A stretch of DNA of 64,000 nt from Eledone cirrhosa (taxonomy: Eukaryota): positions 4,650,001 through 4,714,000 of the forward strand of contig OZ024755.1 of the NCBI GenBank assembly GCA_964016885.1, read 5' to 3'. The position numbers and the translations under genes were made by a program. Below, piece after piece: positions 9,021 to 60,285 of this stretch; the first letter of the stretch is position 1, and each line of letters opens with the position of its first letter. The notes under the pieces are model-generated. The model was not told the origin of the DNA, ran no database searches, and saw only the letters and a list, made by a program, of their open reading frames with translations.

Positions 9021-9401
9021 TCCTCTACCATCTATTGTATTCTATCACACCAGAATAACCATCATTTAGCGATAGGCATAGCAGTAGTTTCAGTTTATCT
9101 AAATACAATAGATGAGGAACATCAACTGGCAGGGTTAGACCCAGAGGTAGGCAACGAGTGAGGTGGTTGGATAACTTCTATAAGCTCGGTTGGGGATCCA
9201 GTCAGATCATTTGGAGATGGTTGCTTTTCATAGAACCCCCTGGAAAGCCTCCATACCGCTCTCAAGAAGAAGAAGAAGCAGCAGCATAATGTTTCTCGTT
9301 TTTCACCACTGTTTCATGTTCAATAATTGCTTTTGTATTTTCTATCATCTCTGAACCTTATTTTGTTAATGCTGTATGTTTCTTATTGTTATTTGTTTAA
9401 G

Positions 9402-10044
9402 GTCTGCCAGCAACTTGGCATTTTAGAGGTTGACTATTTTGGTCTTCAGTACCAGGGCAATAAAGGAGAACAGCTATGGGTTAATATGCGCAACCGTATA
9501 AACCAACAACTGAACAAACCGCCACCATATCGACTCCAACTGAAGGTTAAATTTTTTGTGCCTCCTCATTCTTTGCAGCAAAACACAACCAGGTACTTTT
9601 TTGTTGTTTATTCATTATGTGTTTAACTCTTCTGATACCAACCTACCTAAAACTGGTTCTGGTCCTAATACCAACCTACCTAAAACTGGTTCTGGTCCTA
9701 ATACCAACCTACCTAAAACTGGTTCTGGTCCTAATACCAACCTACCTAAAACTGGTTCTGATACCAACCTACCTAAAACTGGTTCTGATACCAACCTACC
9801 TAAAACTGGTTCTGATACCAACCTACCTAAAACTGGTTCTGATACAAACCTATCTAAAACTGGTTCTGATACAAACCTATCTAAAACTGGTTCTGATACA
9901 AACCTATCTAAAACTGGTTCTGATTCTGATATCAAACTACCTAAAACCAGTTCTGGTTCTAATAACTTTTAATCATCATCATCATCACCATTATCACCAC
10001 CACCATCATCATCGCCATTATCACCACCACCACCATCATCGCCG

Positions 10045-10077
<33 letters not shown>

Positions 10078-29016: not shown

Positions 29017-30023
29017 ATGCCTAAAAAGAAGAAAAAGAAGGAGAAAGTAGCTGATGGATTAACCTTGGCCCAGAGAATAGAATTGAAGAAAAAACAGAAA
29101 GAAGAAGAAAATGTAAATAGCAGTTTTTTTCTTTTTTTCATCCTTCCAGAGTTGATAGAATAAAGTACCAGCTATGTACTGGGGTTGGTTGATGTAATCA
29201 ACTTTCCCCCTTCCCCCAAAATTGTTGGTCATGTGCCTAAACCTAAATCAAAAACCTTTATTTTATTAGATTCCTGCTAAAGTAGAAGCTAAACCCGTTC
29301 AACAAGAGGTTGCCAGCACCAGCGTTGCAGAGGGAAAAGATGAAAAAGATGACTGCAACAAATCCCAGATGTTAAAAGATGTTAGTCATGTTAAAGAAGA
29401 ACCAAGTGTTAAAGAACAAGAGAAAATACCAGAACAAGACTTGAATCAAGAAACATCGAGAGGTTATAGCATCTCTGTTGATATAAGTCACCCAAAAGTA
29501 AACCAAGAAGTTCAGAACCCATATTTCAAGTATGTTTTATTCAACTTAAATATTGTTATAATTGTTATATGTTGTCCTAATATTGCCAAAAATAGTAAAA
29601 CACACTCACTGTTTGGTTCGGTTTTCACTTCAGTATATTTTTATATTTTTATAAATAATTTAGCTGGGAATCAATGTTTATCATTGATTGACCAACAGTT
29701 AAAAATATAAATATAATTTCTCAAAAACCTTGCAAAACAAATACATTACTGCCAACTTAACCCTTTACCATTTACATTATTCTATATTTACTATTGTGTT
29801 TTTGCAGTAAAGGCTTTATCTTACATAATTATCTCACATAATATGGAATCTATGAGATTTTGATATTATTTATTTTAAGAAGAATACCCTTAACATCTGT
29901 ATGAGTGGCCAGTTATGGCTGGTTTGAACAGAAAGAGGTGAGAAAATTCTGGCCAGATACAGCCAGTTTAAATGCTAAAGGGTTAAATGAGTCCAAGTTT
30001 ATATTTCTAAGTTTTCAAGCTGT

Positions 30024-30088
<65 letters not shown>

Positions 30089-31581
30089 GGGGGGAGGGTA
30101 TTTTTAAATGTTCCAATTTGGGTTTAGATGAAACATAAGATATTTGTTGTTTCTTGACAGGCAAAAATCTTTCACTAGAAACGATGAACAGAAAAAAAGC
30201 TTCTTTGATATTCCACAAAAATCAAAAGACAAGAAAGTGGTAAGTTTTCAAACTGAACAGATGATGGCCTAGGGAAATATTTGGTATTTTGTTTAATCAT
30301 GGTTCCTAGCTTGAAATATTGATAAGTAGACTGAAGCAAGTTTAATTTGTAAAACGCAAACATGAATCTAAGGTCAGCAAACATCTTTCAAGGTGTCGAG
30401 TCTTGTCTTACACATTTTAACTCTAATAAGGTGTGGCCTCTACATTTAGTGTCTGAGAAACCAAGTTGTCACTTGAATATGGAAGTGGTTGGTGTTAGGA
30501 AGGGCATCCAGTCATAGAAACTGGCCAAACAAGGGGTTAGGAGGACCCTTTAGTTTATGTCAAAAGACAATTTCTCCTGTGCCCTCAGTTCAGTTTTAAT
30601 GGTTTCTGATTAAGGCATTAGGCCAATAATTTGGGGGTAAGGGAATGTCGATTAAATTCACCCCAGTGCATTACTGGTACTTTATTTTATTGACCCTATA
30701 AGGATGAAAGGCAAAGCTAACCACAGAGATATTTGAACTCAGTATGTAAAGGGATGTAACTAAATGCCACAAAACATTGTGCAACACTCTACCAATACTG
30801 TCAATCATGGAATGATAGTTTTACTATAATCCTTCTCAATGTCCTCATTAGCCTCATTAACACATTCTCAATAATGAACAACTTCATTCCATTCCTAAGA
30901 ACTTTTTATTCTCTTCTTTGTAAATAGTGTATCATACTATTGTTTCCTTTATGCCCCTTTTTTATGTCTTAGACCAGGGGTGTGTAACATATTCCATTGG
31001 TGGGCCACTTTTGAATATTGGAACAACTATTAGGGCCATTAATATTTATCAAGCACTATTCCAAAGATTCACCACAACTTCTTCCCATAACATGGAACTG
31101 GGAATTTATAACACACATAACCCTATCAGTGAAGCCCTTTAGTATAGGTCAACTAACAGAAGTATTATGATTACGAAAAAAATTCTAAATAAACCTACAA
31201 GGTAAAAATTTAAAACGGTCATCGCGGTCCACTCTGGTCCACTGGTCTGGCAGGCCGGATTGTGGCCTGCGGGCCGCCTGTAGCACACCTCTGTCTTAGA
31301 TTTATACACAACTAGTGAAATAAATGATAAGAAGAAAATATTTTCCCAGATTTAATCATAACTCTTTGTTCTGAACACACGTTCTACCAACGTCAACATT
31401 GCCTTTCATACTTCTGTGGTTGATAAAGATAAATAAACTGTCTGGTTTTGTAGCCTTATAGGTATTTTCTATACTTTTGTGTAGTATATTTTTCTAATTT
31501 TCTATTTTGAGTGTTTAACTTATTGTATGGAGGTTCTGATCTAATTCTTGGCTCTTCAATGTTGTCGGGTTTTAACTACTA

Positions 31582-31619
<38 letters not shown>

Positions 31620-33263
31620 ACTACTACTGCTGCTGCTGCTGTTACTACTGGTATTACTACTACTACTAGTACTGCTGCTGCTGCTACTACTACCACTACT
31701 ACTAACTATTACTACTACTACTGCTACCACCACTACTACTACTACCACCACTACCACCACCACCACCACTACTACTACTACTAATTCTACTGCTACCACC
31801 ACTACTACTACCACCACCACCACCACCACCACTACTACTACTACTACTAATTCTACTGCTACCACCACTACTACTACCACCACCACCACCACCACCACCA
31901 CTACTACTAACTACTACTACTACTACTACTACTAATTCTACTGCTACCACCACCACCACCACTACTACTACTACAGTCATACCTTCAGTAAAAGGACAAA
32001 CAAATGTTTTATGATCATTTTCTCTGCTAAAGCAGGGTTTAGACTTGCAGACAGGGAGATTTAGCTGCTATCTTTAGCAGGTCAGTTGACCATACGGTGG
32101 CTCTCTCTCTCTCTGTTAGATTTGTTTATATATTAGAGTTCATAGTTCATTGATCAGGCCTGTCAACTGACTTACAAACATCTGCTGTTATTTCTCAAGG
32201 AAAATAATATTACACGTGATGTCTATTAATGAAATAGTTAGTTAATCGATTTAAACGTCCGTATAGAGCTAGTAAGCCTTGACAGACTTAGGGGAAGTAT
32301 CTAGTACTTCTTACAGTTGAGAAGTAAAAAAACAAAAAAACAAGATAGACAGAGAGAAATGAATATAAAAATCTTCTTCTTCTTCTTCTTGTTCAACTAT
32401 TTATTCCCGAGAGAGGGCAGAGTCCTGAAACGCTCCTTCCAGCAGATCCTGGCAGAAGCAACTATTTCCTACAGAAGTGGTAAGCTATGACTAGGCGAAG
32501 TATCTATTACTTCTTACAGTTGAGAAACAAAAGAACAAGATAGACAGTGATAAGTGAACATAAAAATAAAAATCCAAATTAAAAATTAAATATAATTTAT
32601 AATATAAAATAAAATAAAGAATTTAAATAGGAAATGCCAATGGAAGAGGGGTGAAGTGGGGGCAACATTAGCATAAAAAAATGAAAAGAAGATCACAGTA
32701 ATTAAAGAAAGACATGAATATTTTGTGTTATCATTGCTTTCTTCTAGATAATTATTCTACAACACATATCGACCCCGTAAAGATGAAAGGCAAATTTAAC
32801 CTCGGAGGGATTTGAACTCAGATTGTAAAGGGCCGTAGCTCTATGATGTAAAGCATGGCGTCCAACCCTCTACTTTACCGCCAATCCACTTCCCTAATAA
32901 TAATTATATCTACTTTAGGCACAAGGCCAGCAATTATCCAGTGTATTACTGGTACTTTATTTTATCGACCCCTGTAAGGATGAAAGGCAAAGTTAACCTC
33001 GGAGGGATTTGAACTCAGATTGTAAAGGGGTGTAACTCTATGCTCCAAAGCATGGCCTCCGACCTTCCACCGATACTGTCAATCCACCGCCCTAATAATA
33101 ATGATAATAATAGTGCTTTTAGTTGTTGTTTTTCTGTTGTTTTTAATCTGTGACCTGAATTTAAAGGAGATGAGATCAAAATACACAACAACAGTGTCAA
33201 ATAAAGTGTCAGAGAATATGTGAAGATTTTATCTTTATTGTAAACAATGTCACAAGTAATAAG

Positions 33264-33307
<44 letters not shown>

Positions 33308-34539
33308 GGTGTTGGATGCTTAAAGTGTCCATAGGCTGTATGAGCACTCAATGCTGTCATAGAGCAGAGTATGATATCACAGAAAAAAAGGGAATCAGTG
33401 TTGTGACGAATGGAATTTATTGGACATATTACAATCGTTTCTCTGGTGACCAGCTCGAGGCACGATCGATTTGATGATTGAACCTGACTCTGAAAATCGC
33501 AAGGTCCTCAGATACATCTTGATTCTACGAGGCAGATTTTCCTATATATATATTCTTTTATTCTTTTACCTGTTCCAGCCATCTGGCTGAGGCCATGCTG
33601 GGGCACCGCCCTTGTTGCTACACATTTTATCTCCAGCCTGTATTGGTTGGCCACTGGTGCATGAGGGAGTTCATTGCTCCTGCCCTTAGGTTTCCCTCAT
33701 GATGATATTATATATATATATATATAATATCATCACTATTTAACATCCATTTTTCCATGCTAGCATGGGTTAGACAAGTTGTCCCACTGTGAGACAAACC
33801 AGATCAGATGACAATGTCTTGTTCATACAGAACTGTTTCTGGCTTGGTGTCTATGGCTGGATGCCCTTCCTTATGCCAACCACAATTATAGTGTCGGCTG
33901 GATGTTTATATATATATATGTGTGTGGATCAGTATGTGTGTGTGTATATACATATATGTACATGTGTGTATGTGTATGTGTGTGTGTGTATATACATATA
34001 TGTATGTGTGTGTATGTGTATACATATTATACATATATGTACGTGTATGTGTGTGTGTGTGTGTGTGTATACATATATGATATATATGGCTGGAAACAGG
34101 AAAATGAACAAATACAGAGTCCCATCTCATCAGTCAATGTTGTTCAGTGATGAGATGGGATTGTTGGTATTTGGTCTTCTTCCTGTTTTCACTTTTATAT
34201 ATAGTTTTTATTCATTTGTATAATTTTAGCCATGCAGGATTTTATATATATATATATATATATATAGCTGTATGGGAACCTCCCAAGAGTCAGCTCAAAG
34301 GTGACACAGAAGAGACTGAGGTTAGCTGGACATGCTCACCGACATCCAGAGTTGACATTGTGCTCCTGTGGGAGCCCCTACATGGACACACTGGAAGAGG
34401 AAGACCAAGGTTAATGTATCTTGATGCCCTAAGGACAGACACTGGTCTGTTGGAGACGCAGGACATGGCAGCGATAATGAGGGACAGAGACCGTTGGAGA
34501 GAACTTGTCCATGGATCTCAGGAAATTTACCCGCTCTAG

Positions 34540-34574
<35 letters not shown>

Positions 34575-35686
34575 TCAGATTTTACCAGTTTAAAACTAGT
34601 AAAACCATTATTCAGCAGAGTTTTCAATGCTTGGGATAGTAGAGTGTAAATATATTAGAGAGTCTGGAATTTGCTGTTGGAACGGCAAGAGCTTAGCAAT
34701 CATGCCTTGACTCTCAAACATGTGTGTATATATATATATATATATGTATATAATTGTTTCTACTTTTGGCACAAGGCCAGCAATTATCCCAGTGCATTAC
34801 TGGTGCTTTATTTTATCGACCCCGTCAGGATGAAAGGTAAAGTTAACCTCGGCGGGATTTGAGCTCAGATCATAAAGGGCCGTAACTCTATGCTGTACCG
34901 ATACTGCCAATCCACCATGTATATAGATGTATGTATATAAAATGGCTAAATAGTGAGTCTTGTTACTCTGGAGTTTTACCTGCTTGCTCACTCGGTCTGT
35001 CCTCTATTGTCCTTAATGTTATACTTTATGTCAACCCTTGTGTTTAATAAAGAAAGCCTTATTATTATTATTATTATTAGGGCGGTGAATTGGCAATATC
35101 GGTAGAGGGTCGGACGCCCTGCTTCTAGCATAGTTACGTCCCTTTACAGTCCGAGTTCAAATCCCGCCGAGGTTAACTTTGCCTTTCATCCTTACAGGGT
35201 CGATAAAATAAAGTACCAGTAATGTACTGGGTAATTGCTGGCCTTGTGCCTAAAGTAGAAACAATTATTATTATTATTATTATTCTGACTTGGTGCGTAA
35301 ATTAGAAACAATTATTAATATTATTATTATTAGTTCGTTATTTTCCAGTTTATTAAAATGTTATGATACTAAACAATGTCCTTGTTTTCCAGGACTTTAC
35401 CTATGGCTACCTACCACCAGCTATTTGCCTGCCAGAGCAGACCTACACATCGAGAAGAGCTTACCAAGTGTTCTATCAATACCACCCACATATTGATTCA
35501 ATCAGTCAATTTGTAGAGAATAACCTGAAAAATATAATTGTTATGAACTCACAAAGATACAATGCTGATAATAATCAATGTGTTATGGAAGGAGGAGAGG
35601 ATTTCACTCATCTTCGATCCCTTCAAACATATTTGCTAAGTGAATCAATGCAAACAGAAATGGATAGGTTTCTAGCCGATCTCTGA
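29017..35686 (+). CDS. Uncharacterised Lys/Glu-rich protein, ~242 aa (4 coding exons found)
   Basis: Exons 29017-29112 (MPKKKKKKEKVADGLTLAQRIELKKKQKEEEN), 29270-29529, 30161-30239, 35393-35686 (DFTYGYLPPAICLPEQTYTSRRAYQVFYQYHPHID...MDRFLADL*). All AG/GT bounded with consistent phases. Further small exons in 30240-35392 cannot be excluded. Confidence 0.7.
29757..29986. mobile_element. piggyBac-like TTAA MITE
   Basis: Same family. Confidence 0.85.
30975..31293. mobile_element. hAT (Charlie-like) MITE
   Basis: TIRs CAGGGGTGTG / CACACCTCTG; 8-bp TSD TCTTAGAC / TCTTAGAT; GC-rich subterminal GCGGGCCG. Confidence 0.78.
31574..31975. repeat. (CTA/CTG/CCA)n trinucleotide repeat
   Basis: Direct inspection. 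Confidence 0.95.
34340..34540 (+). mobile_element. RTE-like LINE C-terminal fragment
   Basis: VLLWEPLHGHTGRGRPRLMYLDALRTDTGL..MRDRDRWRELV. Confidence 0.7.
35079..35266 (+). mobile_element. tRNA-derived SINE (Deu/Nin-like core), full length
   Basis: Same family as 52927-53114; flanked by (TTA)n. Confidence 0.88.
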
Positions 35687-35893
35687 GAGAATGTTCTGTA
35701 TGTTGCTATATTGGAATGTAACATTACGCAGGACTAGTAGATGTGGTTGTTGGTGTTAGGAAGGGCATCCAGCTATAGAAACCAAACAAGAAACAGTTCT
35801 ATATGAACAAGACATGGTCATCTGGTATGACTTGCCTCACATCAGGACAACTCCTCTAACCCATGCTTGCATAATGGACGTTAAATAATAATA

Positions 35894-36440
35894 ATTGTTT
35901 CTATTTTTGGCACAAGGCCAGCAATTACCCAGTGTATTACTGGTACTTTATTTTATCGACCCCGTAAGGATGAAAGGCAAAGTTAACCTCGGCAGGATTT
36001 GAACTCAGACTGTAAAGGGATGTAACTATACTAGAAAGCAGGGCGTCCGACCCTCTACCGATACTGCCAATCCACCGAAGAATGATAGGTAATAGGAAAA
36101 TAAATATACACAACACATATTGAACAATAACAAATAAGAATTTATTTGAAGAAATGTCAAAATGTTTAATATAATAAATTATTAATTAATATAATATATA
36201 ATAATATAATATAATAAAATGGTTCAATATAATACAATATAATATAAAATATAATTGTTTCTACCTTTGGCACAAGGCCAGCAATAACCCAGTACATTAC
36301 TGGTACTTTATTTTATCGACCCCGCAAGGATGAAAGGCAAAGTCAACCTCAGCGGGATTTGAACTCAGATCGAAAAGGGACGTAACTATGCTGGAAAGCA
36401 TGGCGTCCGAGCCTCTACCGATACTGCCAATCCACCGCCT
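35894..36440 (-). mobile_element. Two tRNA-derived SINE copies (35894-36077, 36253-36440)
   Basis: Reverse complement of the family consensus. Confidence 0.88.
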
Positions 36441-37587
36441 AATATAATATAAAATATAATGCATTTTTTTTATATTACAAATTAATAATAATAATAATAT
36501 AAAATATAATGTAATATAATAAATTAATAATAAAAGTTAAAGCTATGCTATTCCATTTATTAAATTTCAATTTAAAAAAAAATCAAAACTATTTATGAAA
36601 AAATATTTTTAATAAAAATAAATAATTAAAATAAAATGAAGAAATAATTTAAATGTTTAATGAGGCACCAAGTTTAGTAAATAAAACCTTTGATATTCCT
36701 TTTGAGTTTCTTATTTAATATAGATAGATAATATTTGAATTACAAAAATATTTCATAGTAAAGCACCCGAAGAATTGCATGCATGGTTCTGTAACTCCCA
36801 GAGGGAGTTATAGTGGCACCTTAGTGGCATTCGGCATTTCTAGGACATTTCTTAAAAACCTGGTGGAGCCCATCTCCTCACTGGGTCTGAATATGGCAAA
36901 TTTTTTCCAGAGAAAGATAGAAAGTGAGAGAATGGAAGTGAGAAAGAGATATAAAGGAAGAATCGACCCCAGTACTTGACTGGTACTTTTTTTATCAACC
37001 TCGAATGGGTGAAAGGCAAAGTTGACCTCGGCGGAATTTGAACTCAAAGAACAGAGAGCTGAAATGAATACTACAAAGCATTCTATCTGACATTCTAACG
37101 ACTCTGCAATTTTGCCGCCTTGTTAAGGTGTATATACTTTGACTTAAAATAAAACTACACAAAGGATAAAAAAAAAGGAAGTCAAAGAGTGTCCGAAAAT
37201 ATAAATATAAAACAGCAACAGAAAGTTTTCACCTGTTAATTAAGATTTTTTTATTCTGTATAGGTGAAATTAAGAATTACTTGATGTTATCAACAGTAAA
37301 AGAGGTTTGCGTTGAAATTTAACTTTTCAGTATTTTGAAAGGCAAAGATATGTGATACTGACATATTTGATACTCTTTGTATGTTTTGCGTTAGATTAAT
37401 ATTTCCAAAATGTAGCTTTCCAAGTAAGGCCCTGGCCACATAATTTCATGAACTCTAACAGAAATATGCAAAGGGTAAACATCATAATGAATATTTTGAA
37501 AGGAGATAAATATCAGATATAAATATAAAAATTGTTATTGTAGACCCTGCTTTAGAAGTAAATCAATCAATATGACTATTTTATATG

Positions 37588-37601
37588 GTTGCTATGGTTA
37601 C
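37588..37601. promoter_or_regulatory. Near-consensus 14-bp RFX X-box
   Basis: GTTGCTATGGTTAC (reverse complement GTAACCATAGCAAC). Confidence 0.4.
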
Positions 37602-38356
37602 TGAACAACCAACAGAGTCACTGCATCTGTAGCTGAATGGAATAAAATTCTAAAATACCCCCCTAAAATATTGACAAACCACTCAGCCACACACCTTCAT
37701 TAGCGAATCTAATATAAATAATGCAATAATGCTAAAAATCTTGATATTATGCAAATAACTGTAAGATCTTCAATAAATACAGTGAAACAAATTGACAAAA
37801 ATGCTGTACATGATAGGAAGTTTCAAACATAACATTTTATATAAAGAGTTGCATGTTCATGTGTGGAGATGCCAGAAAGTAGCTTATAAAATAGGGTGGA
37901 GGCCCTTAAAGATGGAAAAAGAACTTACCCTTAGCCGCATTTAATGATACATTAAAAAAAGAAGTTCCTACATTTTCCATTATAAATCTCAAAGCTGCCA
38001 TTTTTAATTATAGGACTCTGAAAAACATGTATGTATGTATATATATATATATACTTCCATACATACATGTATACATACATCACTAGTTCTGATCGATCGA
38101 CAAGATCCCAGACCTCATTCGCTAGCCGAGTGGGTGGACCTCATCAAATCGGACCAGGGAAACAAAGTTTCCATTGGTCTTTCCATTGCCAATACTATCT
38201 ACCAGTCGCAACTCCTGGCAGAAGAAGCAATATGAAATAAAGTGTCTTGCTCAAGGACACAATGCATCACCCAGTCAAAGAATTGAACTCACAACCTCAC
38301 GATTGCAAATCCATCTCTCTAACCACTAAGACACGCGCCTTCACATATACATATAC

Positions 38357-38387
<31 letters not shown>

Positions 38388-38922
38388 AGCGTGAAACTAA
38401 TAAACCTTTGTTTGTACTGCCTCTCTGTTTTGTTCCCGTTCCATTTTTCACTATATATATATATATATGTGTGTGTGTACATCTCTAATAACAGTAATAA
38501 AACCCAGATACACAGAAAAGCTGATTCATGAAAAACCAATTAACAGATCACATCAAAACAGGATCTCAACAACTGCAGGTTCTACAAGAAACCTTAAAGT
38601 GTATCCCCCCTCACCACATACATACCTCCATTTCTGTCTAAGGCCCTACCAGAAATCTTACAGTGTAAACCCCCCCCCCTCCATTTTGTGTGTGTTCCAT
38701 CTTGAATTATAAAACTAATGTTATTGTTAGTGACTTCTGTTAAACAATAATCTATGACAAATTGACAACATCTTGTGTATTAACTAATTAGACTTAAATA
38801 CTCTTTTAGTAAGTTATTACATTACAAAAGTGGAGAGGTTATAGAATGATAAATTAACTCCATTTCAAAATATTCAAAACATATTTAAAGTTCAACCTCT
38901 CTTTCTTTCATAGATCAGTGCC

Positions 38923-40680
38923 CTAAGACTTTCTAGGAACAAATTTTAGGGCACTACTAAATATTCAGTATCGATTTTTACCAACTTCGGGTCCATCATT
39001 CAGGAACTCATGTCCAAGACTTTTGCCACATTTTGCACAAGAAATCTAGCAAATATATGAAAATAAAAACAAGAGAAATTATAACAAAAATACTTTTAAA
39101 TTAACCAAAATTACTATAGTTAATATGAAGCATTGTGAGATATGTAATAAATGACTGATAAGTTTCAGAAAGCTGGTATATTTGAAAAGAGGGGTATAAC
39201 CCTGAAATATCATGTTGAAATATACTGGGTAAAACATTACTTTGTTTTGTTTTATTTGTCATCTTTTGCCCTTTATATATTTCTACCTCATTGTATACTG
39301 GCTTTCTGAAATATTATCTTGAAAATTTAAATATTTTAGAGACACAAAACAATAAACAAGATAGATTTAACCCTGTTAACCAACATTGAATGTATCTAGA
39401 GTAATAGAACTAATGCTGATTAATGAAAAAATGTTGATTCCTTAAACAGACAAAAAAGAAATAAAGTTATTAAACCAACAATTAACTCAAACTCTTCCTG
39501 AGAGATAGAAGTTATTTTGCATTGTTTTGTTGCCTTGAATCCCCACAGTGTGCTCAGACACCACTATTCCAATGATATGAGCCTGGGGACTGTGAGAGGA
39601 GGGTCCCCAGGTGCTGATCACAGCAGACACAATGGAGAAAGTGTTGCCCTAGAGAATGGTGAAAAGGCAGTACTGGATCTACCTATAAGCTAAATAAGCT
39701 ATAGCTTAAAGCCTCACATCCGTAGGACCTAATTTTGTATTGTGAATATTTTCTAAAATAGAAGAGATCTGTTTCTCAAAATGCAAAGAAAAAAAAATGT
39801 CTTTAATTAAATTATAAATACATAAACAATCAAACAAAACTATAATTAATTAGAAAAAGTATTAATTACTTTAATGGCAGAAGAAGATTCTTGGTATCGG
39901 CTGACAAGATCTGGATGGATTAAATTCAAGAAAGCCGGCCATGGAGAAGTGTGTTCATATTTCTTCTTACTATCAAATAATGGTGTGTTACAGTCAGCAC
40001 AATTGTATGTACCTAGCAATTGAAAGGAGAAAGTAAGGAGATAAACGCTATAATTTAATAATTCCTAATTTAGTCACAAGGCCAGCAATTTTACAGAAGG
40101 AAGAGGGAAGTAAGATATATTGACTACCAGTGCTTTATTGGTAATTTATCTTATTGACTTTGTGGAGTGGTGGTGGTGTTATGATATAACACACCCAGTA
40201 CACCTTGTACTAGTGTTAAGATAAAAAACTACTCAGTCAACTCAATAAGGTGATAATACTTGTGCTACGTTAAAAAGAAACGCAGTCTACCCCGCAAAGG
40301 GGTAGTGTTGGCACCATGATATATCACACACAGTCCACCCTGTACTAGTGTTAAGATAAAAAGCACTCAGTCAACCCAATAAAGTGATAATGCTGGCGCT
40401 ACGTTAAAAAGAACACAGTCCACCCTGTAGTGTGATAGTGTTGGTGCCTCTATATAACACACCCAGTCCACCCTGTAAAGTGATATTGCAGGCACCTAGA
40501 TATAATCAAGGTCCCCTCACCTGATCTCTCACAAAGGGACTCTCCGTCCTACTCATGATAGCGTTAAACGATGATGATGATATACATTGGAGGGTTCTTT
40601 ATTAAGTCGCTGACGGAATATAAACAATGAAGTTTACATACAGACATGTGTTACAACACGGACATCTCCATACACACATA

Positions 40681-40742
<62 letters not shown>

Positions 40743-41144
40743 CAGACATATTTACACGTATGTATAAGCGAGTTTTTGGCGATCACCGTACAAGACGGAG
40801 ATAGACACATAGATAGGATATTAATTAAGATATAGAGAATAAGATATTGTTAATAAACTTTCTGACGTGTATTTATGAAAGTGTGGTGGACATGACGATT
40901 AATGAAGTTTCGTCAACAATATTCGGTAATTAAAGGGAACCGGGAGTAGCAGGGTATGTTATGTAACAGTGGCATGGCTTGCGTGTGTTTATATTTCAAA
41001 ACATATATATTTATATATATTTCACAACAAAAACATCTTAATTGCATTACGTAAAACCAGATAAGAAATGGGATTAAGAATTCATTTCTAATCTTCTCAG
41101 GTTATGAAATGTAGTGTACCTGTATTTACTATATTTAGAACGAC

Positions 41145-41208
<64 letters not shown>

Positions 41209-41603
41209 ACCGATAGAGAAATATTAAATTAAATTAATATTATAAACGAAAATCAAAGAAGTTATACCAATGAGAAGAAAAAAGAAGGTAATTAATTTGA
41301 TAATAAAATTTATTGACAATATTATATTATTACATATTATTTTTAAAAGAAACCATTTTTATCATCATATAAGAAATATATATGATTAAATAGAAATAGA
41401 TATTATTAATTATTGCTAGGAACCTTATAAATATACGATCAAAACCGGGGATTAAATATTGATAAAATATCTTGTACCATATAATAAATAGCTCCTGGGC
41501 CATTAAATGAAAAAAGAAAATTATATGAAGTAAATAATAATTCCTTACCATCTTCGAAGTGATCGCGATATTGTTCAGAACCAAACCAACACGAGAAAGA
41601 CAT
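38923..41603 (-). CDS. MSRB1: Methionine-R-sulfoxide reductase B1 (selenoprotein R/X), 106 aa, Sec93 encoded by TGA
   Basis: Exons 41603-41549 ([19 protein letters not shown]), 40012-39870 ([47 protein letters not shown]), 39045-38923 ([40 protein letters not shown]). Two Zn-binding CxxC motifs plus SPWPAF and GHEFLNDGP. Similarity to vertebrate MSRB1 (RFUIFSSSLKFVP) continues past the TGA at 38965-38967. Confidence 0.96.
38965..38967 (-). other. MSRB1: In-frame TGA recoded as selenocysteine (catalytic residue of MSRB1)
   Basis: Minus strand reads CGA TAC TGA ATA TTT AGT AGT GCC CTA AAA TTT GTT CCT; aligns with the catalytic Sec of human MSRB1. Confidence 0.93.
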
Positions 41604-43404
41604 TCTACAAATAAAATAATTTACTTGAGTAAAGGCACAGAAGGATTCCAAATAACTGTAGTTATTTTATGAGAAAATAAAATAAAATAACGAATAAATA
41701 CTATATATATATTGATCTTAACCAAATGGAATAAAAAGGGTACGGGGTAATTGTTGCCGAAATATTTAAAGCGTTTGTCATTTTTTGATAATTCTTAATT
41801 GTTATCTCAGGTAAACTTATATAACGACTGCATAACAAGCAAACATTTCTTCTCGGTCTTACATAAATATATCTACCTGGAATATTACTGAAGATTATTT
41901 TTGTTTTTTCAGATACACATGTAAATATAAATATATATAAACCGCAGAATTCCAATGTATGTGACTGTAAAATCAAAGAAAAAATTAAGAATACGAACTC
42001 GTATAACGACACGGTTTCCCCAAAGCGGATTTCGTTGGCGAATAGAATAAGAAAAAATTGTTTTTTTTTCAAGAGAGGAAATTTGAATTAAGAATTGTTC
42101 GAGTGCGTCATTTAATAGCGAACAACTCCTTAACCTGTTTACAGCTTATTGTTGTTACCGGTTGTGGAACTGATAAATAATAACCAAGTCAGTGGTACTC
42201 TAACGGACCAAGGTGAATGATATTTACTGCAACGATAGTGCCAAACAACATTAATTACGTCCCAGAACAATAAAATAAAATGACAAAAATGCGATTTAAA
42301 ACCGAAAAAGCTGAAAGAATTATTAGATAAGAGCCTTTTCTATATATATTTTTTTTCGGTTTCTATAAAGCTAGTGGCGACCGACATAATTTTGATTAAG
42401 GTTACAGAGACAATCAGTATAATGAAAATATGATTTTATATATTGATAAACTGTTACCAAAACAAAAGATACCTTTAAAATAATTGTTAATAATTTAAGC
42501 TTAATTATGAAATCGTGTCAAAGAAATTTCTTGAAAAAGTCAACGAAAAGCAGAGAGGAAGAGAAAAGATATGAGTTGCTTCCCTTGATAATGTGATAAA
42601 AATAAATCTAAAAGCTATTATTTTCTTTACCGAATAGGGACTTGACAGCTTCCTAGGAATACGACAGCTCCCAGGGACATGACAACTCCTCCAGCTACAT
42701 GATAACTCCCAGGGACATGGCACCCCCAGTGACCTGACAACCCCCCTCCCCCAGTGACCTGACAACTCCCCCCCCCCCCAGTGACCTGACAACTCCCCCT
42801 CCCCCAGTGACCTGACAACTCCCAGGGATACGACAGCGAATATGTCCTTCAAAGCTGTCACCAAAATGACTCGTTTTCTGTCATTCCCCCACCCTAGAAC
42901 TCCATAACGTCCGTTTCAGAGACAGCTGTCATAATAAATATTTACCAAAATTAACAAATACAACCAGCCTAGCATTAAATAGAATAAAGAGGGTGTAGAG
43001 ATGTGTGTGGTTGGCCTTAGGGAGTAAAGGCGGCGGTTTGAAAGAGTCGGGTTGTATGTAAGGACTTTCCTTGTAGTGGCGTCAAGGTAACAGATTTCTT
43101 CCGAATGTTTACCTTTACGTATAGGGGGGGGGGGGGGCTATAAGTGTGTGTGGAAGAGTATCTATTCATGTGTGTGTAAATACGAAACTGAGTCTAAATG
43201 TTTCCAACTCTACTCTGGTATCTTAGCAACACATTCAATTATGATAAACAAATCCTGTTACGTTCTTTAAAAGTCTGCAACTGAAATTATCTAAACTGAC
43301 TTTTACGGAATAACAGACTTACATGCACATACATACACAAACACACTCACACGCATATCGACTCAGTCACACCAGACCAACCATAAGACAACTCCTAATA
43401 TAAA
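41604..43404. promoter_or_regulatory. Putative bidirectional promoter region MSRB1 / CFAP54
   Basis: Divergent ATGs 1.8 kb apart. The region lacks SINEs and is relatively CpG-richer than its flanks. Confidence 0.6.
43218..43230 (+). promoter_or_regulatory. RFX X-box-like motif upstream of CFAP54
   Basis: GTATCTTAGCAAC about 175 bp before the ATG of a motile-cilia gene; fits the GTNNCY-N-RGCAAC X-box pattern. Confidence 0.5.
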
Positions 43405-46400
43405 ATGGCAACAAACATCAGACTAAAAGCTGCTAAATTACTTAATAAACAACATCCAAGTAGTTATTATGATGCAGCCGGGTGTAAAATTAACCCCGTG
43501 TTTGCATCATTTAAAGCAGAAAGGGACGATTTTTTATCAAATTTAAGGAAAAAGTTGACTGATGTAACTTCCATACATGGTCGAAAGTAAGTATTTCTTT
43601 CTTTCAAGAAATGTTTCAACTCTCCCCGTGACACGTTTTCTCTTATGAAAATGGTTATAGCTTTCATTATGTAAAATAAAGTACCAGTAATGCACTGGAT
43701 AATTGCTGGCCTTGTGCCTAAAGTAGAAACAATTATGTAAAATTTCCCCATATCTCTACGTTTTGGAGCACTTTTTTTCATGGTACTCTCCGTTGGGGTT
43801 TTTAGAGGTTGGCAAGTCGTTTATCATGACTGAAATACACTCTATTTTAATTAATTAGTGGATAATTTTGAAGGATTTACTAATTGTTTCATTATTAAGA
43901 TGGTGCCTTAAAATTTGGTTCTTAAACAAAATTACATTGGAAGATTTTAAATTAAATAGGAACTCTTTAAAATGGGTTTTTTTTTTTTTCATAGAACCAG
44001 AGCTGGTTCTGGTCAGGTTGGCTTCAAAAGGGTTAATTGCTTTGTTAGAGGTGGAAGGGCAACACCAAAGACCCACATCAGGATCTCTGAGACTGGGGGA
44101 ACGAAAGAATGTAGTTATTCTTAGACAGACCTGAGGCCTAGCCCTAATATTTATTGCCTTAAAACAACAATAGGCTATCACTAACAATTGAGTATGACTT
44201 GGTAGTATGCACCATGCTTTTGCTAAGGGTTTTAGGTGTCTGTGCATCCGCGAGCAAACACAGACACAATCTTGAACCATCAGAATATCCAAAATGGTTC
44301 TTCATTGGAAAGAAAGAAGACTAGTACTTTCTTTATCGACCCCCCCCCCCCCCCCCCAACAAAAATAATGGAAGGCAATGTAAACCTCAGCAGAATTAGA
44401 ACCCAGAACCCAGAACAAGAAACTCAGAACACAGAGACCTGGAACAAATATCCAATGCTCTAACTACTTTGCTAAATTGACTGCTTTACAAGTTATATAA
44501 TAGTATAAATAAAAACTGAAATTTCTTTTATAGGTCAATGATATTATTTGAAATGTTAAAAAAGTACCGGCATTTACTTCCACAAGAATACTTTTTTAAA
44601 CAGATTTTAAAAATTGGAAGTTTACTCAGAGAAGAGGAGGTAAGTTAATTTTGTAGAGGAATACAGTTTTTAAAAATAAAATCAGTTTCACTCTAACATA
44701 GCAGATACATAAATGCATTTGTGAGTTTTATATGTTCTTAGACATAAAATCGCTCAGTATGCAAATTAGGCTTATCAGCCGATGTATACATATTATATAT
44801 TCTCAAGACTTCTAGTGAGTGACAGAAGAGAGATACACAATCTTGATAAAGGGCAATAACCCAGAAACTATTGTTGATTGTTTCTAGTGTATATTTTAAA
44901 CCTGGCAGAGACTGTCTCTTCTCCAGGTCTGAATACAGCAGATTTCTTCCAGAGAATGATAGAAAGAGTGAGAGAATGGACGTGAGAAGGAGATATAGAG
45001 GAAGAAACAAGCCCCTCCCCAGTACTTGACTGGTACTTTTTTATTGATTTTGAATGGATGATAGGCAAAGTTGACCTCATACTTTTAAACCAAATTCTTG
45101 TATAAAACACTTGAAATCCTTCTTACAACTTATTTTCAGGAATATATTTTGGAATTGTCTTGTTACAATTTTTATTTCCTGGAGTTGAATATGAATGACA
45201 GTACCATCCAAGATTTAAGTAGCTATTCCTCAAGTTACTTTCCTCAAGGAATGAACTCTGATGCAGCTCTTCTGACAGTAAGTATTCAGTAAACTGCTTC
45301 TTATTTTAACAAGGAAGGAATTTCTTGAAGAATTCTTGAGCATGTGGTTAGAATGTCTTGGGAAAGAATTGCTGGACAGATTTTACAGGAAAAAATCAAC
45401 TGGCAGGAGACCCAGGGGTAGACCCCAAGCAAGATGGTTGGATAACATCCATGAGCTTGACTGATGATTTTCGTTGTCTACCTCTACTGCATCTTCCTTC
45501 TACAGGGAGTTCTTGGAACTTCTTTACCCAGCAGTCATCCTCCATGCTCATCACATGTCCATACCAACGCAGTCTTCTCTCCTGCACATCACAACTTATC
45601 CCTCTTATATATATTTATACATGTAATCATCATCATCACCATTTTACTTCCATTCTTCCACGCGAGCATGGGTTAGACGGGTTGTCCTGTTGTGGGCAGT
45701 GCCTGGTTAGCTGACCATGCCTTGCTCATACAGGAACTGATTCTGGCTTGATTTCTACAGCTGGATGCCCTTCCTAACACCAACCTCAGTGAGTGCTGGG
45801 TGCTTTTTTTCTGTTGCGCCTACATGTCCACTTTACAGTGTGGGCTGGGTGCTTTTTTGCCATGGCACCTTCTATGTGTATTAAATGAATTTTTTTTTTC
45901 AATTAACTTTTTAGGTTCAGATTTTGGTTGCAAATTATTTTTGTTTGTACCAAATTGAAAAATTGAAGAACTGTCTGACATGCAATGAAGCAGCTGCTGA
46001 ATGTGAAAAGATTTTATTGTCCTACCAAATGTTGACACAAATTCTCTTATATGAGGATTCATATTATTGGCTGCTTTATAACTGTAAGTTATTTAAGGTA
46101 TTTCTATTTTAAGGGGCTGATAAAAAAAAAACACACAGTCCACACTGTAATGTGGCCATGTAGGTAACATGGTAAAAAGTTTCCAGTCCACACTGTAAAT
46201 GTGGTTGGTGTTAGGAAGGGCATCCAGCTGTAGAAAACCTGCCAGACAGTCCTATATGAGCGAGACACGGTCACCTGACCAATCTTGCCTCAAGTGGGAC
46301 AATTACTATCTAACCCATGCTAACGTGGAAGATAGATGTTAAACGATGATGATGATGTAAAGGGGTTGGTGATAGGAAGGCATCTGGCCTTAGAAAACTT

Positions 46401-47557
46401 GCCAAACAAAGGGTTGAGAGAACCCTTCAGTTTGTAGAATATAATAAAATAGAATTGCGTTATATATCTTCTGAGAATTGTCTTATCAAGTGCCTGTGTT
46501 GATGTTTTCTCTCTCTCACTGCCTTTATCTCCCTTGCTCTTCCCCATCTCTCTATATTATAAGCTATATCTTCTGAGAATTGTCTTATCAAGTGCCTGTG
46601 TTGATGTTCTCTCTCTCTCACTGTCTTTATCTCCCTTGCTCTTCCCCATCTCTCTATATTATAAGCTATATCTTCTGAGAATTGTCTTATCAAGTGCCTG
46701 TGTTGATGTTCTCTCTCTCTCACTGTCTTTATCTCCCTTGCTCTTCCCCATCTCTCTATATTATAAGCTATATCTTCTGAGAATTGTCTTATCAAGTGCC
46801 TGTGTTGATGTTCTCTCTCTCTCACTGTCTTTATCTCCCTTGCTCTTCCCCATCTCTCTATATTATAAGCTATATCTTCTGAGAATTGTCTTATCAAGTG
46901 CCTGTGTTGATGTTCTCTCTCTCTCACTGTCTTTATCTCCCTTGCTCTTCCCCATCTCTCTATATTATAAGCTATATCTTCTGAGAATTGTCTTATCAAG
47001 TGCCTGTGTTGATGTTCTCTCTCTCTCACTGCCTTTATCTCCCTTGCTCTTCCCCATCTCTCTATATTATAAGCAAATGTGAGTCTATGCACTGGCCATC
47101 CCACAACCCTGGCGGACAGAAAAAAGAATGCGTTTCCCCCAGAGGAGGGTGAGGGAGACGAGTTAGAAGACCCATTCCAGTTCGCGAGGCTCACACCTGT
47201 TCCCCCCCCCCCACTTTTTTTTTTCTGTTTTGTTGACTTCCTGTCTATCCCCCTCCCCTTTTTAGTTGACATGACATTATATTGGAATATTAACTAGTAA
47301 AAGTAATGTGAGGAAGGTCATTCAGTCAGTTTAACTAATAAGCTTCTGACAGTTCAAATTTGCAGTCCTTGTGCCTAAATTAAAAATCACTGATTGTTTC
47401 CTATTCCTTCTATGTTTCAGGCACTGTCCATATTTACACCATTTGTCTAGAAATGATGATGGCTGGACATTCTGCAAAGGTGACTTAAATCCTAACATAA
47501 CTTTGATTTTTAATGTATGCACTTATACTAAAAGAAAGAAAATATATATATATATAC

Positions 47558-47626
<69 letters not shown>

Positions 47627-50600
47627 ATACTTTGTTTACAATGTTCATTATATTGATATGGACGGTGGATTGGCAGAATTGGTAGAGCGTTGGATAACAT
47701 GCTTTGCAGCATATAGTTACAGACCTTTAAGTTCTGCCAAGGTTTCCCTTTCATCCTTACGGGGTTGATAAAATAAAGTACCAGTAATTGCACATCCATG
47801 AACTTGGCTGGTCTAGCTTGGAGATCCAGCTGGATCAGTTGGAGATGGTTGCTTTTGACAGGACCTGCTGGAAGGAATGTTTGAGGACTCTGCCCTCACA
47901 ATCCTTTCAGGAATAAGTGGGCTGAGAAGAAGAAGTATTTCAACCAAAACACTCACTTGAGTGGGGTTTCTTCTCCGAAGACCTTTTGATGTCCAGCTCC
48001 TTTGAGTTGATAATTTCAAAAGAGAGAAAACTGCAATAAAATACATTTCATTGGAGCATTGTTGCTATTTTCTTTTAAAAGACATTTCTAAACCTTTCGA
48101 CTCTTATTCATTTTTTTTACCGTTATTCTGTTTTCTCTTTTGTTATATTATTTTTGGCAGATCTTAGAACACTTGCTCTGGGCGTGTATGTGTATTGAGA
48201 ACTCTTCACCTCTGTCTGATATTCAGTACATGTGTTGGAGATGTTCACTGTACACAACAATATGTCAGTGTTACTGGGAATATAAATCAGGAGAACATGC
48301 TGAGGCTTTTGCCAGGAGAGCACTGTGTAAAATGAACGACATCTGGAGTCCGCTAATAAAGCACGAAAATGGTAAAAATAACCAACTGGTATTAATTGTA
48401 CGAGAATGTACTTTGAAGGTATTTTATATATATTTTTGTTGATTTTACTAGTTTATTTCAATTTCTTCTTCTTCTTTTTCTTCTTCTCCTTCCTCTTCCT
48501 CCTAACATGGGTTAGATGAGTTGTCCCATTGTGAGACAAGCCAGGTCAGATGACAATGTCTTGCTCATACAGAACTGTTTCTCGATTTGTTTCTACAGCT
48601 GGATGCCCTTCCTGGCACCGACTACATTTACAGTGTGGACTAGGTTGCTTTTTGTCATGTCATCAACATGACCACTTTACAGGGTTGGCCTTGTGTTTTT
48701 TGTCGTGTCAATTTTCATTCAATTTTCATTAAATATTTTCTCATATAAGAAATTAAATAATTAAATTGTTTTCTGTCTCAAATAATGAAATTATTTTCTT
48801 CTTGAATAGATGGGGTTCATGATCTTTAAACGAGTTGTCTTTGAAACCCGCCGAAAAATGAAAGGAGTTCTACGTGTGAAGAACAGGTTTACTGAAAAGG
48901 ATTTTGCAAATGTTAGTTAATTCTTAAAATTTCATATAAATTCTCTGTTAATTGTTTTGTTACCAATCTGGTCAAAACTGGCTCTAGTTCTATGAAATAA
49001 AGTCACCCATTTTAAAGGTTTCCAATGTATATTAAAATCTTCTAACATAATTTTATATAAGAACCTTACATTAAGTTTCTATCTTAGTAATGAAATAACT
49101 AATAATTTTAGTAAATCCTTCAAAATTCTTCATTAATTAATTGAAATACATGGTTCCAATTTAAATTAAAATCTTCCAACATAAAATAATCATTCTTAGT
49201 TATAAAAAAAATCTAAAATAAGCAATAATGTTTTCTACATTTCATCTGCCTGTCACCCACCTCATGGATTGTCTCTGTCATTCACTGGCTGCTGTTCTCT
49301 GTCCTCTGAGGCATTTTTGCCCATCTCTGTCTTTGACAGCATTTAGCTGTTTTAATGGCTATTCTAGCAATGAGTTTACTCATTTTTATATGAATTTAAA
49401 TACACCCGCGCTTCATCTTGATCAGAGACAACAATGTTTTTCAAATAAATTTTTTTCTATTTTTCCAGATGGTTTGGCCAAGAACTATCACAGAGAAATT
49501 ATTAGCTGAGATGTTTGATAGTGAATCAGCCCAATTCTTGGCCATTTTGGAAAGTCTGAATGACACACATCGACGCCTCTTAACACCAGGTGGTATTTTC
49601 CAAGGAGAAGTCGAGTTAATTGATGTCAGTTTGGAACTGTTAGTTGCTGCCAAAGAAATATTATCAGGTTTGTGAAGTTGTAGTTTTATAATTCTTTGGT
49701 TTAATACATGAATGTAGTGAGTGGTCGGAGGTGGCTAGCAGAGGTCTTGGACTGGTCCATTCCTTCTGATTAAAATGATAAGAATGTAGTGGAAGGGTCA
49801 TGGGGGGCAGAGTCCTCAAACACACCTTCCAGTGGGTCCTGGCTAAAGCAACCGTTTCCAACTGATCCAGCTGGTTCCCCAAGCAAGACCAGCCAAGCTC
49901 GTGGATGTTATCCAACCATCTTTCTCAGGGTCTAGCCTTGGGTCTCCAGCTGGTTCCCCAAGCAAGACCAGCCAAGCTCGTGGATGTTATCCAACCATCT
50001 TTCTCAGGGTCTAGCCTTGGGTCTCCAGCTGGTTCCCCAACCAGTACCAGTCAAGTTCATCCATGTTATCTACCTATCTTGCTCGGTGTAAATATTGCGA
50101 CATTGATTATGCAACATGTTTAATTAAAGCTGAAAAGTTGTATTACTTTTGTAGGAAATGCAGTAAGTAACCGCATGAGAAAAGACTCTCCTAACAATGT
50201 ATTGGCCAATGTTACTCAGATGGAAGATTATTCTCTTCTAGAATTAGCCATAAAAGGTATTCAGATTTTAGTCTATTTTCTTTGTTCACAATATTCATTT
50301 AAAACTACACCACACTACATCACACCACACCACACTGCAACACATCACACCAACTGCAACACACCACACCGCTACACACTACACTACACCACTACATTTC
50401 CTATGCCACACCCGATAAATACACCTCCATAATATTCTTCAAACTCTTTAGTTGAGTTTTTTGTGTTATATTCTTTGTAGGAGAAAGTAAAGTACCTCTA
50501 AAGGCCGTGTTCCGTCTTGCCCTGTTGGCATTCAGTTACGAGCAATGGGAAATCTTTTATTACTTATCAGATGCTTTGCAGGTATTGTTTTTTAAAATCA

Positions 50601-59600: not shown

Positions 59601-60232
59601 GTATTATAGTAAAACTTTCATTGCTATTTTCACATTCCAGAAAAAAGAAGATTCGTCGATGATCGATTATGATACATTATTAAATGATTGTGGTTCCAAT
59701 AATTTGTTGAAAGCTTTCCTGAAAATGCACACAGCCATGATGATGAAGGAATCAAGAAGTGAAATGTTACAGGTGAATCATTCTCTCTATATATGCAATC
59801 AATGGAAACATGTTGTGCTGAGAAAGACCCGTACAACCCATGCAAGCATGGAAAAACAATGATGATGATTTTTCAAGATTAGTAACACTTGGATATGTTT
59901 CTATAAATCAAACTCTATTTTTATTGAAATTTTGCTCTATCTTATGTTGATGCAGTCAGAAGTTTACACATAACTTTCTTTAAATCATTCCTTTCAGCAA
60001 TCTTTGAATTGTATAATGAAGTTCCAGAAAGAAGAGGCCAAAATCTATGAAATGTATAATAAAATCAGTCAGCATGATAAAGAATCTACTGTACCAAAGA
60101 CAGATTTGCCACTGGCTCCGATTCTTTTATGGAGGTCAACATCAACAATAGCATTTAAACCTTCCAAGTTCAACTCATCTTCTGGCGAGAAGGTATAATA
60201 TAAGATGTTCAACTTTTGTACAAACATGTTTT

Positions 60233-60285
<53 letters not shown>

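What the first reader, a model, noticed from the sequence alone, without database searches (positions are those of the whole stretch)
38923..41603. Selenoprotein gene MSRB1 with UGA-Sec recoding, largely missed by the ORF track
Seen: three minus-strand exons splice in frame to a 106-aa MsrB with both CxxC Zn motifs. A TGA at 38965-38967 sits at codon 93 and is followed by 13 more codons ([13 protein letters not shown]) before TAG. Known: vertebrate MSRB1 uses Sec at the equivalent position (RF-U-IFSSSLKFVP) with an N-terminal resolving Cys4. Here the N-terminal Cys is shifted to position 5 (MSFSCWF). Inference: a functional stop-codon-readthrough selenoprotein that automated pipelines would truncate or mis-splice.
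Basis: partly seen in the sequence, partly recalled or inferred. Interest (0 to 1): 0.75.

Follow-up and report, generated by a model that had tools for sequence, protein, structure and literature searches.

The report
Octopod selenoprotein MsrB1, odd recoding signals
This intact, spliced gene in an octopus-type genome belongs to the known protein-repair enzyme family MsrB1, and its internal UGA 'stop' is very likely read as selenocysteine, probably through a slightly non-standard RNA hairpin 1.5 kb downstream; it is an ordinary family member that public octopus records cut short.

Summary
Observation confirmed. Three minus-strand GT/AG exons give 106 codons with TGA at codon 93. The TGA aligns with the catalytic residue of mammalian MsrB1. 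All 36 of 40 related loci holding that exon have TGA followed by IFS. A spliced contig keeps the TGA and joins exon 2 to exon 3. The genome has tRNA-Sec and SepSecS. Octopus and Argonauta records stop at the TGA or splice round it. SelR is already reported from a mollusc, so this is a new member of a known family.

Cys5 is an octopod-wide swap (4 of 38 intact N-termini). No AA-type SECIS lies downstream; the one SECIS-like hairpin (37457-37394) has CA/AG at its apex, and non-AA apexes occur at 8 of 36 relatives' loci. A 10-bp hairpin starts 9 nt after the UGA (z -3.3). The roles of both hairpins are untested. The scan had no earlier MSRB1 note, but it noted non-AA SECIS apexes in other genomes.

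The parts
41817..41833 (-). 3' end of a likely upstream exon with an in-frame ATG (would add 6 residues); weak GT donor at 41816
   Evidence: Reads M-Q-S-L-Y plus a split Lys codon, matching the S-L-Y-K extension of O. vulgaris isoform P0002. An AG acceptor lies just before 41604.
41549..41604 (-). First coding exon (ATG at 41603; Cys5 codon 41591-41589, likely the resolving Cys)
   Evidence: 95% identity to O. vulgaris residues 1-19; the X4 contig length fits a start at 41604.
40013..41548 (-). Intron, 1536 nt, GT..AG, phase 1
39870..40012 (-). Second coding exon: first CxxC (C23, C26) and SPWPAF motif
   Evidence: Pfam SelR 37.5 bits; PDB MsrB1; its end is joined to exon 3 in X4.
39046..39869 (-). 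Intron, 824 nt, GT..AG, phase 0
   Evidence: Absent from X4's spliced contig; its 3' end is read through in X1 and X2 contigs.
38923..39045 (-). Third coding exon: second CxxC (C69, C72), GHEF motif, Arg91, Sec93, Phe95, TAG stop
38965..38967 (-). In-frame TGA, likely selenocysteine 93 (= mouse Sec95)
   Evidence: Aligns with the catalytic Cys/Ser of the MsrB1 mutant structures; TGA in 36 of 36 informative relatives; unchanged in X1, X2, X4.
38917..38955 (-). Predicted hairpin starting 9 nt after the UGA and spanning the true stop (SRE-like; function untested)
   Evidence: 15-nt arms, 87% complementary, 10 contiguous perfect pairs; -18.2 kcal/mol, z -3.3, 2 of 200 shuffles; 21 of 2000 synonymous recodings as stable.
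38453..38922 (-). 3' UTR as far as the spliced contig reaches (ends at a TA microsatellite)
   Evidence: X4 record 25, 792 nt: laid without differences to 38500, with 47 further letters beyond the stretch.
37394..37457 (-). Candidate type II SECIS: AUGAA core at 37449-37445, GGAA at 37406-37403, 10-bp helix 2 with two U-U mismatches, 7-bp helix 1, apex CA/AG instead of AA or CC
   Evidence: Only such core in 38990-35000; 2 of 300 shuffles reach it; best hit of a model built without it, 11.9 bits, E 0.11; single copy in the genome. Not shown to be on the mRNA.

Best explanation
This is the single-copy octopod orthologue of MSRB1 (SelR/SelX), a zinc-binding methionine-R-sulfoxide reductase gene whose spliced message keeps an in-frame UGA that is very likely decoded as catalytic selenocysteine 93, probably directed by a non-standard SECIS hairpin 1.5 kb past the stop. 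Shown here: exon structure, splicing of exon 2 to exon 3 with the UGA kept, the UGA at the catalytic position, both CxxC motifs, Sec-type active-site residues, and Sec machinery in the genome. Inferred from mammalian MsrB1: Sec93 attacks methionine-R-sulfoxide and is left as a selenenic acid, the N-terminal Cys5 (Cys4 in most animals) resolves it as a selenenylsulfide, and thioredoxin reduces that bond. Inferred and untested: the hairpin at 37457-37394 is the working SECIS (about 0.7), and the hairpin 9 nt after the UGA slows termination and aids recoding (about 0.35).
For: Pfam SelR and PDB MsrB1 matches, with TGA at the catalytic residue. TGA followed by IFS in 36 of 40 related loci; the other 4 lack that exon. 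72 of 82 database homologues end at R-F/R-Y just before this position. The post-UGA residues match mammalian records at 8-9 of 13. Glu79 and Phe95 match the Glu81/Phe97 required in Sec-form MsrB1, where Cys forms have Val/Ile and Asn (PMC1278935 passages). Spliced contig with the UGA unchanged, depth 92. Two tRNA-Sec genes with TCA anticodon, SepSecS, and five GPx-family matches with a single TGA inside. The tree places the protein with Octopus (97/85) inside a cephalopod group (100/98) next to Pinctada. The SECIS candidate fits the UGAN/KGAW core, and shares AUGAA-A...U-GGA with 4 of 6 other SECIS-like elements found in this genome.
Against: No protein-level evidence for Sec. No Rfam SECIS hit near the gene, and no AA- or CC-type SECIS of useful stability in 11 kb downstream, although the same scanner finds AA elements at other selenoprotein loci of this genome and in 20 of 36 relatives' loci. 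The candidate's overall fold is unremarkable (z -0.72). Its model score is weak (E 3.2 on the whole window, second of 7 hits). Its lowest-energy fold pairs the apical CAGG rather than leaving it bulged (-10.2 against -9.2 kcal/mol). Transcription past 38453 is not shown. Position 77 is Ser, not the Gly of mouse MsrB1, though not the His of Cys forms. Run X4 is not on record as RNA; that is inferred from its splicing.
Confidence: 0.9

Rival explanations
1. The gene is a Sec-MSRB1, but the working SECIS is elsewhere (for example in a spliced distal 3' exon) and the 37457-37394 hairpin is chance.
For: The candidate lacks AA/CC and scores weakly. Mouse and rat Msrb1 have a 3' UTR intron (PMC3316567 passage). 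Four weak AA-type hits lie further down the minus strand, at 20185, 10859, 7885 and 3922.
Against: A convergent gene ends at 35686, and the 3.2 kb between the two stops holds only this core. The distant hits lie beyond that gene and each needs three mismatches or indels. Closely similar non-AA apexes sit behind MsrB1 in relatives. Chance is about 1% on shuffles, with thresholds set at the observed values.
Confidence: 0.22
2. Translation stops at the UGA; the SECIS has decayed and the gene makes an inactive 92-residue protein or is on its way to a pseudogene.
For: All octopod database proteins lack the region after Y92. The SECIS candidate is non-standard. A Cys-type MsrB paralogue exists in the genome.
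Against: The database ends are gene-caller artefacts shared by 72 of 82 homologues, including vertebrates. The frame stays open and MsrB1-like for 13 codons. The Zn ligands and active site are intact. An N-terminal Cys was kept through a C4S/S5C swap; in mouse that Cys is needed only by the Sec form (PMC1278935).
Confidence: 0.05
3. The UGA is read through without Sec, by A-to-I editing to a Trp codon or by near-cognate readthrough stimulated by the adjacent hairpin.
For: A strong hairpin lies 9 nt after the UGA, and such structures stimulate ordinary readthrough (PMC8704476 passage). Extensive A-to-I editing in coleoids is recalled, not from a call.
Against: The spliced contig shows no other letter at the codon (contigs drop rare variants). 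Trp at the catalytic site would be inactive. Glu79 and Phe95 are the Sec-type set.
Confidence: 0.04

Closest known systems
Mammalian MSRB1 / SelR / SelX (PDB 2kv1, 3mao; Pfam PF01641)
   Same: 61 of 106 aligned residues identical to a mouse-species record; the four Zn cysteines, Trp43, His80, Glu81, Arg93, Sec95 and Phe97 equivalents are all present; UGA at the same site.
   Different: Cys at position 5 instead of 4; Ser at the Gly77 site; two residues shorter before Sec (Sec93) and a shorter C-terminus; stop in the third coding exon (mammals have four or five exons, PMC3316567 passage); candidate SECIS without the AAA of human SelX (PMC2761289 passage).
Invertebrate SelR selenoproteins (Jiang et al. 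2012, PMC3473315)
   Same: That paper lists one or two SelR genes in each of six invertebrates, including the mollusc Lottia (table passage), so a Sec-MsrB1 in a cephalopod is expected.
   Different: No cephalopod is among its six species. It describes invertebrate SECIS as AUGA_AA or GUGA_AA. Its supplement with the SECIS drawings could not be read and may show a non-AA SelR element.
Eukaryotic type II SECIS, including the CC forms of mammalian SelM/SelO and Ciona savignyi DsbA
   Same: UGAN/KGAW core, preceding A, helix 1, internal loop, 10-bp helix 2 and room for a mini-helix. CA fits the 'run of Ms' (A or C) of the SECISaln consensus (PMC2647825).
   Different: Neither AA nor CC at the usual distance, so NTGA_AA_GA and NTGA_CC_GA patterns (PMC2375036 passage) would miss it; three adenines lie on the 3' side of the mini-helix instead.
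Selenocysteine redefinition element (SRE) of SELENON and SELENOT
   Same: A stem-loop a few bases 3' of the UGA-Sec codon (PMC8704476 passage).
   Different: No SRE for MSRB1 was seen in the passages read. Here the 3' arm includes the true stop codon. Only 6 of 28 relatives tested have a hairpin at z <= -2 there.

Membership tests
MSRB1 (SelR) selenoprotein | SelR/MsrB domain closer to MsrB1 than to MsrB2/B3 | tested here: met
   MsrB1 E 1e-16 and 1e-10 against 1e-7 and 1e-5 for the next best.
MSRB1 (SelR) selenoprotein | Two CxxC zinc motifs | tested here: met
   C23/C26 and C69/C72. Zinc binding itself was not measured.
MSRB1 (SelR) selenoprotein | In-frame UGA at the catalytic position, kept in the spliced message | tested here: met
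MSRB1 (SelR) selenoprotein | Sec-type active-site set (Gly77, Glu81, Phe97; not His, Val/Ile, Asn) | tested here: met
   Glu79 and Phe95 present; Ser75 at the Gly77 site, not His. Several UGA-bearing relatives also have Ser there.
MSRB1 (SelR) selenoprotein | N-terminal resolving Cys (Cys4) | tested here: inconclusive
   Cys at 5, Ser at 4; same in 4 of 4 octopod records, Cys4 in 32 of 38 intact N-termini. Whether Cys5 resolves Sec was not testable.
MSRB1 (SelR) selenoprotein | Sec machinery in the genome | tested here: met
   Two tRNA-Sec genes and SepSecS. SBP2, eEFSec and PSTK were not searched.
MSRB1 (SelR) selenoprotein | Sec in the protein and Met-R-O reductase activity | not testable with these tools
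   Needs MS, 75Se or an enzyme assay.
Eukaryotic SECIS (element 37457-37394) | RUGAN/KGAW core with helix 2 and helix 1 | tested here: met
   AUGAA/GGAA; 8 of 10 positions paired in helix 2; 7-bp helix 1.
Eukaryotic SECIS (element 37457-37394) | Unpaired AA (or CC) at the apex, 10-13 nt from the core | tested here: not met
   CA/AG there, paired in the lowest-energy fold. Filed as SECIS-like, not as a canonical SECIS.
Eukaryotic SECIS (element 37457-37394) | Lies in the 3' UTR of the message | tested here: inconclusive
   Right strand and between the two stops; the spliced contig ends at 38453. X4 holds 0.49 of the words of 36000-41800, against 0.14 expected for a short UTR and 0.34 for a long one, but repeats inflate this.
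Eukaryotic SECIS (element 37457-37394) | Rfam SECIS_1 match | tested here: inconclusive
   No match. The genome-wide RF00031 search also found nothing anywhere and had no working control.
Eukaryotic SECIS (element 37457-37394) | SBP2 binding and UGA recoding activity | not testable with these tools
   Needs a reporter assay.
Sec redefinition element (SRE) | Stable stem-loop just 3' of UGA-Sec | tested here: met
Sec redefinition element (SRE) | Conserved structure across related species and a stimulatory effect | not testable with these tools
   No other cephalopod DNA was available; distant relatives are mixed (6 of 28).

The most novel reading that the evidence does not exclude
Octopod MSRB1 runs on a rebuilt recoding and recycling kit: a SECIS that has dropped the apical AA/CC, propped up by a redefinition hairpin that starts 9 nt after the UGA and folds over the true stop codon, with the resolving cysteine moved from position 4 to 5. 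MsrB1 SECIS elements across invertebrates have repeatedly swapped the 'essential' AA for CC, CA, CAC, CU or CAG, which would make this family a natural mutagenesis series for what the apical bulge does.
Probability: 0.3. Interest if true: 0.52.

Novelty: new member of a known kind. Interest (0 to 1): 0.3.

Why it matters
As a gene it matters little: MSRB1 is a known selenoprotein across animals, and the practical gain is a corrected model for octopod records that now lack the catalytic residue. The side findings matter more if they hold. The role of the apical AA in SECIS elements is still described as unknown (PMC3316567 passage). Natural MsrB1 elements without AA or CC would be ready-made test cases, and pattern-based SECIS searches would be missing them. 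The octopod Cys4-to-Cys5 swap is a small natural test of how freely the resolving cysteine can move.

Tried and rejected
Rfam scans of 30000-45000 and 36500-38000 gave only microsatellite and chance hits, no SECIS. The genome-wide RF00031 search rang nowhere and is uninformative. No RNA holder was listed by the run search; X4 turned out to be spliced when laid.

My first idea that MSRB1 is nested in CFAP54 was wrong: CFAP54_N matches start at about 44535 on the + strand, head to head. My guessed + strand exons at about 36740-36910 and 37264-37322 are unsupported: the neighbour's O. vulgaris orthologue ends at 35686.

The idea that non-AA MsrB1 SECIS elements form one clade is not supported; the tree is unresolved there, and 4 of 24 chosen loci, including L015, dropped out of it while L042 was not included. 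A link between non-AA SECIS and the post-UGA hairpin is not supported: L015 and L016 have one, L019, L022 and L042 do not.

A model of canonical SECIS elements was not built because MAFFT misregistered them. The covariation on four non-AA elements (8 of 13 pairs changed on both sides) is inflated, because the elements were picked for their stems and after I had seen the window's element. The protein atlas gave no hit for the neighbour exon. No structure was predicted. Four papers were not held, among them the 2022 MSRB1 review and the original SRE paper, which may already cover the Cys position or an MSRB1 SRE.

Full report
Observation. Exons 2 and 3 each pass the Pfam SelR cut-off. Their best solved relatives are MsrB1 structures, in which the TGA falls on the catalytic residue. 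A search of the own genome finds this exon once, plus an exon of a Cys-type MsrB at two places.

Organism and annotation. The closest proteins are from Octopus vulgaris (89-90% identity), O. bimaculoides (87%) and Argonauta hians (84%). A tree of 35 rows places the window with the two Octopus species (97/85), within a cephalopod group (100/98), next to Pinctada (99/95); bootstrap values are rough. Three of the four octopod records end at Y92. The fourth, an O. vulgaris isoform, leaves the frame four residues earlier, where the window has a weak GT at 38981. In all, 72 of 82 homologues end just before the Sec position. These ends are predictions, not evidence of a short protein.

Transcript. 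Four runs of one study hold the region and none is on record as RNA. Laid on 38500-39200, run X4 has one 792-nt contig that matches 38500-39045 without a difference and continues into the end of exon 2, so it is spliced and keeps the TGA. Its 199 loose letters equal exon 2, exon 1 and one base, which fits the AG acceptor before 41604. Its other end works out at 38453, at a TA repeat. X1 and X2 run from the exon into the intron and confirm the TGA in unspliced contigs; X3 has no cover there. An upstream in-frame ATG at 41833 would give an S-L-Y-K extension like that of O. vulgaris P0002; this exon is inferred.

Evidence for Sec. Of 40 related loci from metagenome contigs, 36 hold the catalytic exon and all 36 have TGA followed by IFS. 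Kim and Gladyshev (PMC1278935, passages) show that Sec-form MsrB1 needs Gly77, Glu81 and Phe97 and uses Cys4 for thioredoxin recycling. The window has Ser75, Glu79 and Phe95 at those sites. The genome holds two tRNA-Sec genes, SepSecS and GPx-family matches with in-frame TGA.

Cys5. Among 38 of 82 homologues with a recognisable N-terminus, 32 have Cys4, 4 have Cys5, 1 has Cys7 and 1 has none. The four are the Octopus and Argonauta records. An unnamed cephalopod-like protein (P0005) keeps Cys4, so the swap is likely octopod. Keeping a Cys through two substitutions suggests selection for the resolving step; this is inference.

SECIS. Rfam found none. A SECISearch-style scan of 38990-28000 gave one AA-type pattern hit with no stable fold. 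The same scanner found AA-type elements behind 6 other selenoprotein loci of this genome (L004, L055, L062, L063, L067, L068); L064, L065 and L066 gave none convincing. With the apical rule dropped, one element remains in 38990-35000: core AUGAA at 37449 and GGAA at 37406, 8 of 10 pairs in helix 2, a 7-bp helix 1, reached by 2 of 300 shuffles at thresholds set to its own values. It is single-copy and lies between the MSRB1 stop and the stop of the convergent neighbour at 35686. Its apex reads CA/AG. Against it: z -0.72 for the whole fold, an apex that pairs in the best fold, and no read evidence that the message reaches it.

Relatives' SECIS. Among the 36 loci, 19 have an AA element, 7 have only a non-AA element (L015 CA; L016, L039, L040, L042 CC; L022 CAC; L028 CU), L019 has both a CAG and an AA element, and 9 gave none or have too little DNA. 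L016, L039 and L040 are one lineage, and some other loci are duplicates. L019's apex resembles the window's closely. A model built from four of these, without the window, ranks the window's element first in 36700-38922 (11.9 bits, E 0.11). On the whole window it is second of 7 (E 3.2); the top and third hits, shown as alignments, lack the stem, and the other four are under 35 nt long. Canonical elements score 12-28 bits with it. The training set was chosen after I saw the window's element, so this is modest support.

Post-UGA hairpin. A stem with 10 contiguous pairs starts 9 nt after the UGA and folds over the TAG: -18.2 kcal/mol, z -3.3, matched by 21 of 2000 synonymous recodings. It is the only such stable window in the coding part of the message, though repeats in the UTR fold as well. 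Six of 28 relatives have z <= -2 at the same place. It resembles the SREs of SELENON and SELENOT (PMC8704476, passages); function is untested.

What is known. SelR is listed for six invertebrates including Lottia (PMC3473315, passages; supplement unreadable), and MSRB1-3 predate vertebrates (PMC13134290, passages). CC apexes are known from SelM, SelO and a Ciona DsbA (PMC3316567, PMC2761289, PMC2874816, passages). SECISaln (PMC2647825, part 1 of 2, the main text) calls only UGA/GA invariable and draws a run of A or C at the apex. PMC3753652, PMC2375036 and PMC6316033 were read as passages for consensus, search patterns and mechanism. PMC3328465, PMC7539508 and PMC4114682 (passages) added nothing used here. 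No held paper has MsrB1, selenoprotein and Octopus together. Searches listed nothing on a non-AA MsrB1 SECIS or an MSRB1 SRE by title, but the key review and the SRE paper were not held, and subscription papers are not searched.

Earlier notes. None on MSRB1 by sequence or place. Notes on other selenoproteins of this genome and on non-AA SECIS apexes in other genomes are unchecked; the latter lower the novelty of the apex.

Verdict. A real, intact Sec-type MSRB1 (0.9), new member of a known family. Interest 0.3, carried by the Cys5 swap, the non-AA SECIS candidate and the post-UGA hairpin rather than by the recoding itself.

Noticed in passing
window 44535-62600 (+): CFAP54 gene (Pfam CFAP54_N matches from 44535 to 55240) starts head to head with MSRB1, about 2.7 kb from the upstream MSRB1 exon; a shared promoter is possible.
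   Followed up: partly
window 29035-35686 (+): Convergent gene for a 234-aa protein without Pfam domain; found only in O. vulgaris (84% on the last exon) and one unnamed record (48%), with a conserved basic N-terminus and C-terminal end.
   Followed up: partly
window 9327-12750 (+): FERM_N, FERM_C and RING exons, the layout of a MYLIP/IDOL-type ubiquitin ligase (name recalled).
   Followed up: no
L019:4369-4431 and L019:4540-4579: One MsrB1 relative has two SECIS-like elements 163 nt apart, one with a CAG apex and one with AA, for a single UGA.
   Followed up: partly
L015, L016, L022, L028, L039, L040, L042 (3' of the MsrB1 match): Well-formed SECIS-like hairpins with CA, CC, CAC or CU in place of AA behind MsrB1 genes of unnamed eukaryotes.
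   Followed up: partly
G000:C23:15059770-15059855 and 15118228-15118313 (L059, L060): Two tRNA-Sec genes with equal scores, 58 kb apart in opposite orientation.
   Followed up: no
G000:C4:126896392 and C347:8826 (L002, L003): The Cys-type MsrB exon appears at two places with equal scores, one on a high-numbered contig; possibly an assembly duplicate.
   Followed up: no
L004, L055, L067, L068: Four of six SECIS-like elements at other selenoprotein loci of this genome share AUGAA-A...U-GGAU around the core, a possible species signature.
   Followed up: partly
window 39108-39178: A high-copy repeat fragment sits in intron 2, about 60 nt from the exon 3 acceptor (depth in the thousands in X1-X3).
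   Followed up: no
P0010, P0066: A sponge MsrB1 record has no N-terminal Cys and an unnamed one has it at position 7, so the resolving Cys varies outside octopods too.
   Followed up: no
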